Source: a phage. Taken from it: DNA of 45,074 nucleotides. The stretch lies in NCBI GenBank assembly GCA_028473545.1, contig GCA_028473545.1_4546.1; one strand, 5' to 3'. The position numbers and the translations under genes are program-made. How positions within the stretch are numbered: position 1 is the stretch's first letter; every line of letters begins with the position of its first letter. The notes below the pieces were generated by a model. That model saw only the letters and a program-made list of their open reading frames with translations. It had not been told where the DNA came from and searched no databases. This document shows positions 11,693 to 15,077 of this stretch, piece after piece.

Positions 11693-12779
11693 TCAACATA
11701 TGGCGGATCGCATGATTCGCCGTCACATCTTCACCCAGCGCCTGAGCAATGACCAGGCGCGGCGGGTGTTGGCTATGTGGGAGAAGTTCCGACCCACGTT
11801 ACTTGGCAAGCTGACCGAGTTACTTGATGGCAAAAAGTCCATGAATAACAAGGCACTGACCACACTGTTAACGCAAATAGACAAAACCGTCAAAACGGAA
11901 CTGCGCACCGAGTTTAAGGCGCTGGCTGAAAGCCTTCAGGAGTTTGCCGACACCGAGGCTGATTATCTTGCCGATACATTAACGGCAGCGATCCAGCCTG
12001 CGGTAGCCGTACCGGCTGTTGAGGTTGTTGGCGTAGTGACTGGCGCGCAGATTGCGGCCACGGCTATGAAAAACCCGTTCCAGGGAAACACCATGATGCA
12101 ATGGCCTGATTCACTTTCTGAGTGGACCAGGACGCAGATCGGGAATCAGGTGCGCGCTGGATTCATCCAGGGCAAGCCGACTATGGAAATTATCGCGGAC
12201 GTAAAGCGCGCTCTCGGCGGTCGTAGCGCGCAAGCTATCTCAAGTGTTGTTAAGTCCGCAGTAAACCACTATGCGGCGACCGCCCGCGAGTTAATGGTGA
12301 AAGCTAATGACGAAATTCTCGAAGGTCGCCAATGGTTGGCTACATTGGATACGCACACATCACCAATGTGCCAACTACGCGATCGCCTGTTTTATCCTGT
12401 TGACGTCACTCCCGACACCAAAGGAAAGCGCGGCGGGAAAGAGGTGGCTGGATCACAATATGGCGCTGGTCCGGGCAAGCTACATTATTGCTGCCGTTCG
12501 ACGGAGACGTGGAAAGTTAAAGGCATGGAAGATTGGCCCAGTGGTAAGCGTCCGGCACTGAAGGCTGACGCGGGTCGATTGCTGAGTGAGCAGGTCGACG
12601 CGCAGACTGATTTCTTCTCATGGGTGCAGCGCCAGCCGCGCCATATTCTGGAGGAATTATATGGGGTGCAGCGCGCAGACCAGATTATGCGCGGCGTGAA
12701 AGTGCCTAAGATGTTCACCGATACCGGCGAACTAATGACTATTGCACAGCTTAAAAACCGGGGGTTATGGCGTGATTAA
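11676..12779 (+). CDS. Head morphogenesis protein (Mu gpF / SPP1 gp7-like minor head protein)
   Basis: 367-aa ORF overlapping the portal 3' end; position and size typical; product by synteny. Confidence 0.55.
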   Translation: MARTINQHMADRMIRRHIFTQRLSNDQARRVLAMWEKFRPTLLGKLTELLDGKKSMNNKALTTLLTQIDKTVKTELRTEFKALAESLQEFADTEADYLADTLTAAIQPAVAVPAVEVVGVVTGAQIAATAMKNPFQGNTMMQWPDSLSEWTRTQIGNQVRAGFIQGKPTMEIIADVKRALGGRSAQAISSVVKSAVNHYAATARELMVKANDEILEGRQWLATLDTHTSPMCQLRDRLFYPVDVTPDTKGKRGGKEVAGSQYGAGPGKLHYCCRSTETWKVKGMEDWPSGKRPALKADAGRLLSEQVDAQTDFFSWVQRQPRHILEELYGVQRADQIMRGVKVPKMFTDTGELMTIAQLKNRGLWRD

Positions 12780-13080
12780 ATATGCGGCGATCGGACTAGT
12801 TATCGGTCTGGCGGTTGGATTCTGGCAGGGTGATTCCTACCGCACTGGCGTTGTGGCGCAAGCGGCGCAAGAAGCGCAAGCGAAAGCCCAACGGCAGCAA
12901 ACTAAGGTTGTTGAGGGGTCGGTGAAGGCTGAGCAAGCCCGCGACGTGGAATACCGGACTATCACGAAAGAGGTTGTAAAATATGTTACGCGTCCTAACC
13001 GTCCTGATTGTAGTTTTGATGCTGAGCGCGTGCGGATCAAGCAAAGCGCCATCGACGCCGCTAACCGAGTCGGTCTATAG
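12742..13080 (+). CDS. i-spanin-like protein (N-terminal TM helix plus coiled-coil); start may be GTG at 12772
   Basis: Hydrophobic AAIGLVIGLAVGFW then Q/A/K-rich helical region; 3' end overlapped by a lipoprotein ORF in another frame. Confidence 0.4.
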   Translation: MHSLKTGGYGVIKYAAIGLVIGLAVGFWQGDSYRTGVVAQAAQEAQAKAQRQQTKVVEGSVKAEQARDVEYRTITKEVVKYVTRPNRPDCSFDAERVRIKQSAIDAANRVGL

Positions 13081-13213
13081 ACCGCCTTGCACCTTTGAGA
13101 ATGCATCGGCAGATCCAGACGAAGACTTGCTGGTTGATGTTAAAAATATGGAATGCGGGGCTAAGCTAAGGGCGCAAGTGCTGGAGTTGCAGAAAATAAT
13201 TCGGGGGCCGTGA
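12983..13213 (+). CDS. o-spanin-like lipoprotein
   Basis: 76 aa; signal peptide with lipobox LSAC; Pro/Cys-containing mature part; starts inside the preceding ORF in the +1 frame (Rz/Rz1-like overlap). Confidence 0.45.
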   Translation: MLRVLTVLIVVLMLSACGSSKAPSTPLTESVYRPPCTFENASADPDEDLLVDVKNMECGAKLRAQVLELQKIIRGP

Positions 13214-13226
13214 TGGCCCCTTTTTG
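13200..13226 (+). terminator. Rho-independent terminator at a convergent gene junction
   Basis: gggggcc..ggcccc stem followed by ttttt; lies between the plus-strand lipoprotein gene and the minus-strand island. Confidence 0.45.
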
Positions 13227-13230
13227 TTAA

Positions 13231-13746
13231 CTACAAACGCATCGGCATGATAACTAAAAAGGCACCTCCTTTGAACAGCACGCGTGTTGCCTTGTCTACT
13301 CCCTGAAATTCCAGTTTTAATCCCTCAAACTTACGGTCGAACAATTTAGCAATTTTGCAGGCGTCGGATAGGTATGCCCCGTTAAACCCGATAGCCTCCA
13401 CTTTATTGCTGATGAAAGACGTAACTCTTCTCCAGTCTGGAAATAATAGCCCGTCTACAATCTCGATGGGTATGGTAGCTATTAATACGTCTTTACTATC
13501 GAAGAACGCGGCGGAGGTGCCGTCTATGTTGCAGTATTCGAATTTAGTAGGTAAGCGGCTTTTAATTGATACTATTTTACTTTCACCTTCTGGTACAACC
13601 GCAGACCCGCAGAACAAACGGTGACCGTCTGTAGCCACGATGTATCCTTTCTCGTCGAAAAATACACCATTTAGGAAGTATCGGACGTCATTAGTTGCGG
13701 CGCATATCGTAGCGGCTTTAAGATCGGCGTAGTTAACTTTAATCAT
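13231..13746 (-). CDS. Truncated DnaN (beta sliding clamp) homologue, about 171 aa
   Basis: Start at MIKVNYADLK with gaggaa RBS; DVRYFLNGVFF..VATDGHRLF, DGLLFPDWRRV, EAIGFNGAYLSD and C-terminal VIMPMRL match conserved DnaN segments recalled from E. coli (VRYYLNGMLFE..VATDGHRLA, DGRFPDYRRV, EIGFNVSYVLD, VVMPMRL); far shorter than the 366-aa clamp. Confidence 0.6.
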   Translation of the reverse strand: MIKVNYADLKAATICAATNDVRYFLNGVFFDEKGYIVATDGHRLFCGSAVVPEGESKIVSIKSRLPTKFEYCNIDGTSAAFFDSKDVLIATIPIEIVDGLLFPDWRRVTSFISNKVEAIGFNGAYLSDACKIAKLFDRKFEGLKLEFQGVDKATRVLFKGGAFLVIMPMRL

Positions 13747-13803
13747 TTTAATTTCCTCGTGGTTATGTAGACGATAATTCGGGGCCATTACAGCCCCCTT
13801 TTG

Positions 13804-14568
13804 TTAGCGCGGAATACCGCAGATTTCGTTTAACGTCTTCACATCCAGCGCTACTGCCGTTGACTTCGGCTTGTCCGGGTATGGAATGAATTGTTCAACT
13901 TCAGGCCACGCCGCGATCAGCTTCTTGTCAGTATTGTGCATATCCAGCACGCCGGTAACGGTTAGTTTGAACGCGTCATACTTCGCACGCAATTCACGGC
14001 GGGCCTTGTCGTTGTGGTCCAGGCGCTTGCAGAAATCATGCTCTGCCGGGTAGTCTACGCGACCGCGTGGTAGATATATCGGCAGCGCTTTTCCGTCCTC
14101 ATCCACTTCACATACTGACGCGAGCATAATTTCCTCGTACCCCGGTACAATATCGCTAACGTCAGGCGCGAGCGTATTCATATATTTTTCTTCCCAGTAT
14201 CCGCGGTGCTGGCGGTAGCGGTATCCGTCGCCGCTCATATGCAGGGTACGGATGTTACCGCCTGCGTTGATTTCGAAAGTGGAGCAGTAAACGCGTCCAA
14301 TGCCTTTCTGACGGTCTTTGTTATAGCTATACGTCGCCTTGTCGGTGTAAACGCTGACGCCGTACATCTGCGACTGGTTATCGCGGATTTCTGCGATATA
14401 TGCGCGTAGCTCGGCGAACGTGTGAATGCCTTTTGGCATACAGTCCAGCGTAATTGCGTACGCCAGGTCGCGAGAGTCCATCATGATTGATTTGGCTTCA
14501 GTCGCGATTTCGTGGTCGCGCAGGATGTTAGCCAGAATCTGGTTTTTAATGTCTTTTGTCAGTCTCAT
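13804..14568 (-). CDS. Hypothetical protein (254 aa), island gene 2
   Basis: ORF with gagga RBS; no motif recognised. Confidence 0.55.
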   Translation of the reverse strand: MRLTKDIKNQILANILRDHEIATEAKSIMMDSRDLAYAITLDCMPKGIHTFAELRAYIAEIRDNQSQMYGVSVYTDKATYSYNKDRQKGIGRVYCSTFEINAGGNIRTLHMSGDGYRYRQHRGYWEEKYMNTLAPDVSDIVPGYEEIMLASVCEVDEDGKALPIYLPRGRVDYPAEHDFCKRLDHNDKARRELRAKYDAFKLTVTGVLDMHNTDKKLIAAWPEVEQFIPYPDKPKSTAVALDVKTLNEICGIPR

Positions 14569-14607: not shown

Positions 14608-14922
14608 TTAGTTAAACTTGATGTTGCCACCGATGGAGGTTAAGCGAGCGCATACTGCTTCAACGGCATCAACGCACATGAAATCGTTAAAGGCTTCGAC
14701 CAGGGCGTTGATGAAAGATGCCGGAACCAGACCACAAGCCGGATTATCGAAGGTTGCGGAATTGATCGCAGCTTTCGCAGCTTCAGTAGCGTTCATGCTC
14801 TGGCACAGATTCAGCGCTTCAGCGTTACGCATCGCGTGAAAGGTAAAGGTATTGGCAACGGCAGCTTTATTGAAACGGGTCATTGCTGCATCTACTGGAG
14901 TTGCTACGGTCATGTTATTCAT
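14608..14922 (-). CDS. Hypothetical protein (about 104 aa), island gene 3
   Basis: Start taken at MNNMTV with aaggaaaac RBS; an upstream ATG at 14937 is possible. Confidence 0.45.
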   Translation of the reverse strand: MNNMTVATPVDAAMTRFNKAAVANTFTFHAMRNAEALNLCQSMNATEAAKAAINSATFDNPACGLVPASFINALVEAFNDFMCVDAVEAVCARLTSIGGNIKFN

Positions 14923-14944
14923 TTTGTTTTCCTTCATATCTCTG

Positions 14945-14975
14945 TTGGTGTGCAACCAATATAGTGCAACCAATA
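14945..14975 (-). promoter_or_regulatory. Tandem ATTGGTTGCA boxes in the divergent intergenic region
   Basis: On the minus strand ATTGGTTGCActatATTGGTTGCACACCAACAGAG lies immediately upstream of the island start codon; the last 18 nt match the leader of the 3250 gene. Confidence 0.4.
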
Positions 14976-15077
14976 CCAGGATTGCAAGCGAATTTTGCGA
15001 TTATTTTTATCGCTGATAATATTAGAAGCGTGAAGTCGAGCGGGTGGCCCGCTCTGCCACAATCCCAGGGGGATAGC

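What the first reader, a model, noticed from the sequence alone, without database searches (positions are those of the whole stretch)
13231..13746. Phage-encoded truncated DnaN (beta sliding clamp) retaining cleft-forming segments
The 171-aa product aligns by eye with two parts of E. coli DnaN as I recall it: the start of domain II (DVRYFLNGVFF..VATDGHRLF versus VRYYLNGMLFE..VATDGHRLA; DGLLFPDWRRV versus DGRFPDYRRV) and the C-terminal end of domain III (EAIGFNGAYLSD versus EIGFNVSYVLD; terminal VIMPMRL versus VVMPMRL). It lacks domain I and the first half of domain III, so it cannot form a normal ring. The retained regions include those that form the partner-binding cleft, which could make it a decoy for clamp-binding-motif proteins or a poison subunit of the host clamp. 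I am not aware of a described phage mini-clamp of this type.
Basis: partly seen in the sequence, partly recalled or inferred. Interest (0 to 1): 0.85.

Follow-up and report, generated by a model that had tools for sequence, protein, structure and literature searches.

The report
Phage mini beta-clamp keeping the partner pocket
This coliphage carries a small, mobile gene for a cut-down copy of the bacterial DNA sliding clamp that cannot form the normal ring but keeps almost every residue of the pocket where polymerases and repair proteins dock, so it most likely binds or diverts those proteins. The gene family is common in phages, is only ever annotated as a clamp subunit (or wrongly as a resolvase), and I found no study of its function.

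Summary
The ORF at window 13231-13746 (minus strand, 171 aa) is a real DnaN homologue. A family profile hits E. coli DnaN at E~1e-26 in two stretches, residues 137-259 and 313-365. An AlphaFold model (pLDDT 87) matches DnaN structures. The protein is domain II plus the C-terminal half of domain III. Domain I and DnaN ~260-312 are absent, and those regions hold all four dimer-interface residues.

Seventeen of the 18 residues of the clamp-binding-motif pocket are identical to E. coli. They are also the most conserved positions across 164 distant relatives (10 of the 13 positions that are at least 90% conserved, p=2e-9). The short linker that replaces the lost half-domain is present in every relative, and dN/dS is about 0.2. 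This is an old, selected architecture, not a decayed gene.

In this Dhillonvirus the gene is a 578-bp insertion flanked by a duplicated terminator. Many sister phages lack it. Elsewhere it stands alone, follows a ParB-like gene, or sits in replication modules, in phages with and without their own polymerase.

Function is inferred. It is most likely a soluble, non-ring receptor for clamp-binding motifs, acting as a competitor or as an adaptor. The family is widely annotated but uncharacterised, so I rate it a new variant of a known kind, of moderate-to-high interest.

The parts
13231..13746 (-). Mini-DnaN coding sequence (171 aa plus TAG stop at 13231-13233)
   Evidence: ORF list and sequence. 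PHROG 3007 full-length match, E=2e-51. Family profile against E. coli DnaN, E~1e-26. dN/dS about 0.2 among five alleles.
13417..13746 (-). Residues 1-110, equivalent to DnaN domain II (E. coli ~130-249). The second channel-lining helix is reduced to a loop at aa 62-70.
   Evidence: HMMER stretch 1. AF2 secondary structure shows no helix between strands 57-61 and 71-75. This segment is 17 aa here against a family median of 25.
13396..13416 (-). Short linker (aa 111-117) that replaces the ~55-residue N-terminal half of DnaN domain III
   Evidence: The P103-to-N122 distance is 19 aa here and 18-25 aa in nearly all of the 164 family representatives (two longer outliers), against 78 aa in E. coli (P242-N320). 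This is the lowest-pLDDT block of the model.
13234..13395 (-). Residues 118-171, equivalent to the C-terminal half of DnaN domain III (E. coli ~315-366): one helix plus three strands, ending in VIMPMRL
   Evidence: HMMER stretch 2. AF2 elements H123-136, E144-147, E154-157, E163-166.
13666..13689 (-). Pocket segment DVRYFLNG (R22 = R152, L25 = L155)
   Evidence: Residue mapping and family conservation of 0.96-0.99. Pocket residue list from review PMC11139829.
13615..13632 (-). Pocket segment TDGHRL (T39, G41, H42, R43, L44 = T172, G174, H175, R176, L177)
   Evidence: G41 is invariant; H42 is 98% conserved.
13423..13443 (-). Pocket segment FPDWRRV (P103, R107, V108 = P242, R246, V247). It is preceded by an allele-specific 'LL' where relatives have a single Arg/Lys.
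13372..13386 (-). Pocket segment FNGAY (N122, Y125 = N320, Y323)
13234..13254 (-). Pocket segment VIMPMRL (V165, M167, P168, M169, R170 = V360, M362, P363, M364, R365)
13754..13758 (-). GAGGA ribosome-binding site, 8 nt upstream of the ATG
   Evidence: Read directly from the sequence.
13188..13224 (.). Downstream copy of the duplicated terminator repeat (hairpin 13203-13221). It is the bidirectional terminator between Rz1 and the cassette.
13766..13802 (.). Upstream copy of the same repeat (hairpin 13781-13797), between Nmad5 and mini-DnaN. Its T-run in the minus-strand direction is broken.
   Evidence: Phage Bas85, which lacks the gene, has a single copy at the empty site.
13804..14568 (-). 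Upstream same-strand neighbour, Nmad5 (254 aa). It shares the transcription unit but is not obligatorily linked to mini-DnaN.
   Evidence: Pfam PF18757, E=1e-54. Present without mini-DnaN in Bas85. Tmn-escape mutations map to this gene in other Dhillonviruses (PMC11846954).
14608..14973 (-). First gene of the minus-strand cassette (109-121 aa, phrog_24635, function unknown)
14958..14987 (-). Sigma-70-like promoter candidate for the three-gene minus-strand cassette (TTGCAA-18-TATATT)
   Evidence: Consensus scan only, 9 of 12 matches, not above shuffle expectation.

Best explanation
The gene encodes a 1.5-domain derivative of the bacterial beta sliding clamp: domain II plus the adjoining half of domain III. 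It has lost everything needed for the head-to-tail ring (domain I and the interface half of domain III). It has kept, under strong selection, the hydrophobic pocket where clamp-binding motifs (CBMs) dock. I propose that it acts as a soluble CBM receptor that is not loaded on DNA. By presenting a near-exact copy of the host pocket, it binds host CBM-bearing proteins and competes with the host clamp for them. The clients most exposed to such a competitor would be weakly bound, single-motif ones such as Hda, MutS/MutL and Pol II/IV/V. In phages with their own polymerase, Pol III and the clamp loader could also be targets. This would bias DNA transactions in the infected cell towards the phage. 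Shown here: homology, domain architecture, loss of the interface, pocket conservation, purifying selection, and single-gene mobility. Inferred: peptide binding, the identity of the client(s), and the direction of the effect (sequestration rather than recruitment).
For: DnaN homology and two-block architecture. The dimer-interface residues I78, F106, I272 and L273 lie in absent regions. Seventeen of 18 pocket residues are identical to E. coli beta. Mean family conservation is 0.82 for pocket positions against 0.36 for the rest. Ten of the 13 positions that are at least 90% conserved are pocket residues, hypergeometric p=2.4e-9 (pocket list from PMC11139829). Conservation falls almost only on the pocket, as expected for a protein whose one shared job is to bind a motif. 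The truncated architecture is shared across the family (linker 18-25 aa in nearly all of 164 representatives at or below 50% identity). All of the top 150 exhaustive-HMMER hits are short and match along their full length. dN/dS is about 0.2. The gene moves as a single unit: a 578-bp indel between duplicated terminators, absent from many Dhillonviruses, and solo in Kagunavirus. That fits a function that depends on a conserved host component rather than on a phage-specific partner. No canonical CBM occurs in the phage's own proteins except an internal QVELL in the terminase. This phage has its own Pol A, helicase and primase-like protein, so interfering with host clamp clients need not harm it.
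Against: There is no binding or phenotype data at all. In many temperate phages the gene sits inside replication modules: Pol A - mini-DnaN - VRR-NUC-like - SNF2, and SSB - ParB-like - mini-DnaN - helicase. That fits a constructive replisome role at least as well as a decoy. Serratia phage Eta and Skatevirus BS5 have no annotated DNA polymerase and must use host Pol III, so a strong decoy for the alpha, epsilon or delta subunits would be self-defeating there. Pocket residues are also the most conserved part of ordinary DnaN, and the relatives were collected with a profile that rewards those motifs, so part of the enrichment is expected. The oligomeric state is unknown.
Confidence: 0.4

Rival explanations
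1. Replisome adaptor. The pocket captures the CBM of a host enzyme (Pol III alpha or epsilon, clamp-loader delta, Pol I or ligase), and another surface binds a phage helicase, primase, SSB or ParB-like protein. This recruits host synthesis machinery to phage forks that lack the DnaB-tau link.
For: The gene is embedded in replication or recombination operons next to helicases, SSB, Pol A and nucleases in several lineages. It is present in phages with no annotated polymerase that encode their own helicase and primase (Eta, BS5). The pocket is conserved.
Against: No second surface is conserved across the family. The gene transfers as a lone unit between unrelated phages and is dispensable within Dhillonvirus. 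Neighbours differ widely.
Confidence: 0.25
2. Loader-independent processivity or accessory factor for a polymerase. It would act either as a non-ring DNA-binding clamp-fold protein (as herpesvirus UL42/UL44 do) or after homo-oligomerisation. Two exposed half-domains could pair to rebuild a full domain, and four protomers of 1.5 domains would give the six domains of a ring.
For: In the Acinetobacter-type prophage module the gene starts 4 bp after the Pol A gene (a Pol A C-terminal fragment lies directly upstream). The window phage encodes Pol A. The clamp domain is pseudo-twofold symmetric, so half-domain pairing is geometrically conceivable (inference).
Against: It occurs in phages with no annotated polymerase. 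The window allele has lost one channel-lining helix. The family has no consistent positive charge (median net charge 0, pI 5-9). No CBM was found in the phage Pol A. I could not run a multimer prediction.
Confidence: 0.1
3. Poison subunit. It caps or heterodimerises with host DnaN monomers and blocks ring closure or loading.
For: Its exposed sheet edges are homologous, through the clamp's internal pseudo-symmetry, to interface edges (inference only). Phage proteins that disable the host clamp are known, for example Twort Gp168 (review PMC11139829).
Against: Both halves of the canonical interface are missing (domain I with I78/F106; domain III N-half with I272/L273). Family conservation maps to the pocket, not to edge strands. 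It would also harm carriers that depend on Pol III.
Confidence: 0.05
4. Decaying remnant of a captured host dnaN gene, or a spurious ORF with no function.
For: It is truncated relative to DnaN, falls below the Pfam and NCBIfam cut-offs, and is absent from many sister phages.
Against: dN/dS is about 0.2. The same architecture is kept in thousands of clusters across phages of many hosts. The AF2 fold is confident. A good RBS is present.
Confidence: 0.01

Closest known systems
Bacterial beta sliding clamp DnaN (E. coli, PDB 1MMI/2POL; TIGR00663; Pfam DNA_pol3_beta/_2/_3)
   Same: Homologous fold and sequence in domain II and the last half of domain III. The CBM pocket is 17/18 identical.
   Different: 171 aa instead of 366. 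No domain I, no N-terminal half of domain III, no dimer-interface residues, and one inner helix lost. It fails the family cut-offs. It cannot make the canonical ring.
E. coli beta* (UV-inducible internal-start product of dnaN, domains II-III, reported to act as a trimeric clamp; recalled from Skaliter/Paz-Elizur/Livneh 1996, not retrievable here)
   Same: A naturally shortened DnaN that begins at domain II.
   Different: Beta* keeps the whole of domain III, and hence an interface, and still forms a ring. The phage protein lacks half of domain III. This comparison rests on my memory, not on a tool result (one search found no accessible source).
Engineered monomeric beta (I272A/L273A, PDB 1JQL)
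   Same: A non-ring clamp with an intact pocket. The review reports that it binds clamp-loader delta about 50-fold more tightly than the dimer does (PMC11139829). This shows that a monomeric pocket can be a strong competitor.
   Different: It is a laboratory construct with all three domains, not a natural viral gene.
Phage inhibitors of the host clamp (e.g. Staphylococcus phage Twort Gp168)
   Same: A phage strategy aimed at the clamp hub (review PMC11139829).
   Different: Those proteins bind the clamp (its DNA channel). This one imitates the clamp's pocket and would act on the clamp's clients.
Herpesvirus UL42 / UL44 (clamp-fold processivity factors that do not form closed rings; UL42 is mentioned as a processivity factor in bioRxiv 10.1101/2025.03.26.645540; the rest is from memory)
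   Same: Viral clamp-fold proteins that work without ring closure or a loader, and that dock a polymerase peptide.
   Different: They are PCNA-like two-domain proteins with a basic DNA-binding face. No such face is evident here, and there is no sequence relationship.
Full-length and other short phage DnaN-like proteins (phrog_947, 368-aa profile; phrog_6615, 214 aa; BFVD entries of 163-266 aa)
   Same: Phage-encoded DnaN homologues. Short BFVD models superpose on this one at TM about 0.8.
   Different: phrog_947 proteins are complete three-domain clamps. The short ones are the same uncharacterised class or near it.

Membership tests
Beta sliding clamp DnaN (TIGR00663 / Pfam PF00712+PF02767+PF02768) | Three tandem clamp domains (N-terminal, central, C-terminal), about 366 aa | tested here: not met
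   Only a central-domain match (PF02767, 22 bits, below the cut-off of 27). No PF00712 or PF02768 hit. TIGR00663 gives 25.7 bits against a cut-off of 137.65. The profile alignment covers DnaN 137-259 and 313-365 only.
Beta sliding clamp DnaN | Common ancestry and fold with DnaN domains | tested here: met
   Profile E=9e-27 against 1MMI. Foldseek PDB top hits are all DnaN, probability 1.00.
Beta sliding clamp DnaN | Head-to-tail dimer interface (I78, F106 in domain I; I272, L273 in domain III) | tested here: not met
   All four residues lie in regions with no counterpart in the 171-aa protein.
Beta sliding clamp DnaN | Clamp-binding-motif pocket (subsites I and II, 18 residues) | tested here: met
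   17 of 18 identical to E. coli. Only V344 differs, and the review says V344 is not conserved among clamps either.
Beta sliding clamp DnaN | Closed ring that encircles DNA, loaded by the clamp loader, conferring processivity | not testable with these tools
   Needs multimer modelling or biochemistry. The sequence features argue against it (missing interface, one lost channel helix).
PHROG 3007 (short phage DnaN-like proteins) | Full-length match to the family profile | tested here: met
   E=2.1e-51, residues 1-171 on profile positions 2-186 of 190.
RusA Holliday-junction resolvase (the label attached to PHROG 3007 and copied into RefSeq records) | RusA fold or sequence family | tested here: not met
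   No RusA family among the Pfam hits at E<=1. The fold and profile are DnaN. The label is an annotation error.
Phage moron / single-gene accessory cassette | Presence/absence polymorphism at a fixed site, bounded by transcription signals, on the strand opposite to flanking genes | tested here: met
   A 578-bp indel between two copies of a terminator repeat, with a single copy at the empty site in Bas85. About 75%-coverage hits in many Dhillonviruses. A solo opposite-strand gene in Kagunavirus.
Non-ring viral processivity factors (UL42/UL44-like) | Basic DNA-binding face plus docking of the polymerase C-terminal peptide | tested here: inconclusive
   pI 8.3, net charge +2 here; family median net charge 0 and pI 6.8. 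No CBM-like terminal motif in the phage Pol A. No structural comparison with UL42/UL44 was run.

The most novel reading that the evidence does not exclude
The mini-clamp could be the polymerase-docking half of a loader-independent substitute clamp. One route is self-assembly through its orphan half-domain: pairs rebuild a full domain, and four protomers of 1.5 domains give a six-domain ring. The other route is to ride on the ParB-like protein encoded next to it in Skatevirus-like phages and Serratia phage Eta. ParB proteins are CTP-gated DNA clamps that load themselves, so the pair would split 'encircle DNA' and 'hold the polymerase' between two proteins.
Probability: 0.07. Interest if true: 0.9.

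Novelty: new variant of a known kind. Interest (0 to 1): 0.55.

Why it matters
The beta clamp is the hub through which bacterial polymerases, mismatch repair, the Hda/DnaA control loop and the clamp loader are coordinated, and its pocket is an antibiotic target. A large, old phage family has pared the clamp down to little more than that pocket and passes it around as a single gene. That suggests phages exploit the hub by mimicry of the pocket. The clamp-targeting phage protein cited here, Twort Gp168, instead binds the clamp itself. If the protein sequesters or redirects clamp clients, it would be a natural minimal CBM-binding scaffold useful for inhibitor screening. It would also be a new class of host-takeover or replisome-hijack factor, and a reason to correct hundreds of database records. 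It is readily testable. Close phage relatives with and without the gene exist: the carriers TheodorHerzl and rolling against Bas85 and Bas83.

Tried and rejected
1. RusA-like resolvase (the PHROG/RefSeq label): rejected. There is no RusA match, and the fold and profile are DnaN.

2. Obligate partnership with the upstream Nmad5 gene: rejected. Bas85 has Nmad5 without mini-DnaN, and Kagunavirus has mini-DnaN without Nmad5.

3. Nmad5 as a diverged ParB-like protein, which would unify the two upstream neighbours: no similarity (BLASTP E=6.3).

4. A phage-encoded client with a canonical CBM: a regex scan of the window proteome found only an internal QVELL in the terminase and one antisense ORF. Across 81 related loci the only consistently motif-bearing neighbours were the ParB-like protein and an unrelated 142-aa protein. 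The ParB-like QMHLSL lies in the HTH helix that ParB proteins share, so I judged it coincidental.

5. A general role as a Pol A accessory: weakened, because Eta and BS5 encode no annotated polymerase.

6. The 57-aa gene upstream in Skatevirus-like phages as the missing half-domain supplied in trans: its sequence looks all-helical by eye and it has no Pfam match.

7. Extra domains in longer family members as Rosetta-stone clues: only low-complexity Ala/Asp/Glu/Pro tails, with no Pfam domain.

8. Defence or anti-defence libraries: no PADLOC hit.

9. E. coli prophage copies of a related allele (the prophage-type allele of locus L010, not the window gene): none in 5,426 complete genomes at blastn sensitivity.

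10. Literature: nine full-text searches found only genome-announcement-level annotation.

Full report
**What is there**

The finding's coordinates hold an ORF on the minus strand, 13231-13746, of 171 aa (MIKVNY...VIMPMRL). A GAGGA ribosome-binding site lies 8 nt upstream. The window is a Dhillonvirus, 99.8% identical over this region to Escherichia phage vB_EcoS-CHD5UKE2. In that record the same gene is annotated 'DNA polymerase III beta subunit; possible moron gene product'.

**Is the DnaN similarity real?**

Yes. The single sequence already hits E. coli-type DnaN chains in the PDB at E=2e-6 to 6e-6. A 14-sequence family profile hits E. coli DnaN (1MMI) at E=9e-27, with two separate matched stretches. 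Profile 7-126 aligns to DnaN 137-259 (82 bits). Profile 123-179 aligns to DnaN 313-365 (13 bits, conditional E 3e-6).

An AlphaFold2 model is confident (pLDDT 86.8, pTM 0.85). Its best Foldseek matches in the PDB are all DnaN (E~1e-7, TM on query 0.66). The alignments span about 256 columns, as expected if a block of DnaN is skipped.

Standard models do not call the protein DnaN. Pfam DNA_pol3_beta_2 gives 22 bits against a cut-off of 27. TIGR00663 gives 25.7 bits against 137.65.

**Architecture**

- The protein starts at the first strand of DnaN domain II and runs through that domain.
- It then replaces DnaN ~260-312 with a linker of about 7 residues.
- It ends with the last helix and three strands of domain III.
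- Domain I is absent.
- The four residues that the clamp review names as stabilising the dimer interface (I78, F106, I272, L273) all lie in absent regions.
- In this allele the second channel-lining helix of domain II is also reduced to a loop (aa 62-70).

The canonical ring cannot form.

**The pocket**

I took the 18 pocket residues from the review. Subsite I is R152, L155, T172, G174, H175, R176, L177, P242, R246, V247, V360 and M362. Subsite II is H175, N320, Y323, V344, M362, P363, M364 and R365.

Seventeen are identical in the phage protein. The exception is V344, which the review says is not conserved among clamps either.

I measured conservation across 164 representatives drawn from an exhaustive HMMER scan of a library clustered at 50% identity:

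- Mean conservation is 0.82 at pocket positions and 0.36 elsewhere.
- Ten of the 13 positions that are at least 90% conserved are pocket residues (hypergeometric p=2.4e-9).

Two caveats apply. These residues are also the best-conserved part of ordinary DnaN. The relatives were also gathered with a profile that rewards them.

**It is an old, selected family, not a remnant**

- The exhaustive search returned 35,855 proteins at E<=1e-3. This count includes ordinary DnaN.
- The top 150 representatives are all 141-312 aa (median about 200), and nearly all match along the full profile in one stretch.
- A word-indexed search found 4,326 clusters at 90% identity with E<=1e-10. The best 120 are all 170-236 aa.
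- The P103-to-N122 linker is 18-25 aa in nearly all of the 164 representatives, against 78 aa in E. coli. The half-domain deletion is therefore ancestral to the family.
- dN/dS among five Dhillonvirus alleles is about 0.2.
- BFVD holds many short viral models (163-266 aa) that superpose at TM about 0.8.
- tblastn finds the gene in 234 phage records, including Salmonella 98, Escherichia 59 and Klebsiella 24.

**Genomic setting in this phage**

The gene is the last of three minus-strand genes inserted between the spanin genes and the scaffold/capsid genes. The three are a 109-121-aa protein, Nmad5 and mini-DnaN. A sigma-70-like site lies upstream of the first gene, and a bidirectional terminator lies downstream.

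The gene itself is a 578-bp indel flanked by direct repeats of that terminator, at 13188-13224 and 13766-13802. Dhillonvirus Bas85 lacks the gene and has one copy of the repeat exactly at the empty site. Many Dhillonviruses cover only about 75% of the local query, consistent with absence of the gene.

**Genomic setting elsewhere**

| Lineage | Arrangement |
|---|---|
| Kagunavirus fFiEco02 | A 43%-identical homologue as a solo opposite-strand gene in the head region |
| Skatevirus-like phages (39 of 80 IMG/VR loci) | ParB-like, variable HNH or methyltransferase, a 57-aa protein, then mini-DnaN |
| Serratia phage Eta | SSB, ParB-like, mini-DnaN, helicase |
| Acinetobacter-type prophages | DUF2800, Enc34-type SSB, Pol A, mini-DnaN (4-bp gap), an 87-aa protein with a VRR-NUC-like motif (assigned by eye; no Pfam hit), SNF2 |

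Eta and BS5 have no annotated DNA polymerase. The window phage encodes Pol A, a helicase and a primase-like protein.

The gene is therefore autonomous and mobile. It is usually found among DNA-metabolism genes, and it is not tied to a phage polymerase.

**Mechanism**

Three things are shown: a non-ring clamp fragment, a pocket that is almost identical to the host's and strongly conserved, and single-gene mobility. The rest is inferred.

My best reading (confidence about 0.4) is a soluble receptor for clamp-binding motifs that competes with the host clamp for CBM-bearing proteins. It rests on three points:

- Conservation falls almost exclusively on the pocket.
- The gene works as a stand-alone unit in unrelated phages.
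- A monomeric clamp can be a strong competitor. The review reports about 50-fold tighter delta binding to monomeric beta.

The main objections are the polymerase-less carriers and the frequent placement in replication modules. Both favour the adaptor rival (about 0.25), in which the pocket recruits a host enzyme to phage replication proteins.

A processivity or oligomeric-clamp role (about 0.1) and a poison-subunit role (about 0.05) are less likely, for the reasons given under each rival. A non-functional remnant is effectively excluded.

**Comparison with what is known**

- It is a homologue of DnaN but fails the defining membership features: three domains, the interface, and the family cut-offs.
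- It is a member of PHROG 3007, whose label 'RusA-like Holliday junction resolvase' is wrong and has spread into RefSeq.
- The nearest functional analogies are E. coli beta* (from memory), the engineered monomeric beta, herpesvirus UL42/UL44, and phage clamp inhibitors such as Twort Gp168.
- Nine full-text searches found no structural or functional treatment.

**Verdict**

The architecture and cleft retention hold, the decoy idea is plausible but untested, and the poison-subunit idea is unlikely.
- The thing itself is not newly discovered as a gene. Its 1.5-domain, pocket-only architecture and its likely mode of action appear undescribed.
- I rate it a new variant of a known kind, with interest 0.55.

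Noticed in passing
window 13188-13224 and 13766-13802: The mini-DnaN gene is bracketed by two diverged copies (73% identical over 37 nt) of the Rz1/Nmad5 bidirectional terminator. Phage Bas85, which lacks the gene, has one copy at the same site. This looks like a clean insertion footprint at a terminator.
   Followed up: yes
window 13231-13746; RefSeq records NC_016566 (EP23), NC_054646 (BS5), NC_021563 (Eta), NC_071151 (ZC2): PHROG 3007 is labelled 'RusA-like Holliday junction resolvase', and that name is copied into many RefSeq phage records. The protein has no RusA similarity and is a DnaN fragment, so this is a propagating mis-annotation.
   Followed up: yes
window 13804-14568 (minus strand): The upstream gene is Nmad5 (PF18757, E=1e-54). 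Residue 216 is Lys in 'TDKKLIAAW', the same residue number as the K216E change reported to let Dhillonvirus PhiSMA8 escape the Tmn defence system (PMC11846954). That paper also reports nmad5 as apparently toxic to clone.
   Followed up: partly
window 13443-13449 (aa 100-101): This allele reads VDGLLFPDW, where 99% of relatives, including 84-92%-identical Dhillonvirus alleles, read DG-[R/K]-FPDW. There is an extra Leu and the conserved basic residue (E. coli R240) is lost, just before pocket residue P242. The significance is unknown.
   Followed up: no
L002 2526-4531 (Skatevirus BS5); L097 4330-6300 (Serratia phage Eta): A ParB-like protein (HTH_ParB/KorB) sits just upstream of mini-DnaN in 39 of 80 related viral loci and in the distantly related phage Eta. 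Both of these phages have no annotated DNA polymerase. The pairing may be functional.
   Followed up: partly
family members P0012, P0041, P0127, P0134, P0143, P0157: About 40% of family representatives carry a 20-40-aa (up to about 120-aa) Ala/Asp/Glu/Pro-rich, probably disordered tail after the MPMR motif. DnaN ends at that motif, and the window protein has no tail.
   Followed up: partly
window 14608-14973 (minus strand): The first gene of the cassette (phrog_24635, unknown function) is conserved in Dhillonviruses. A small Dhillonvirus-specific protein, Ksap1, is the trigger of the KpAvs2 defence (PMC11564622). I did not establish whether this ORF is Ksap1.
   Followed up: no
window 12742-13080 and 12983-13213 (plus strand): Two overlapping ORFs lie just upstream of the terminator. 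The annotation of related phages (Rz-like spanin in Bas85) suggests they are the spanin pair. They sit in the head-gene region, away from the lysin gene.
   Followed up: no
L088 8576-8839, L093 7579-7842, L094 7651-7914: In Acinetobacter-type prophage replication modules, mini-DnaN is followed 3 nt later by a conserved 87-aa protein with a PD-(D/E)XK / VRR-NUC-like motif (APDR...AELK) that has no Pfam hit.
   Followed up: partly
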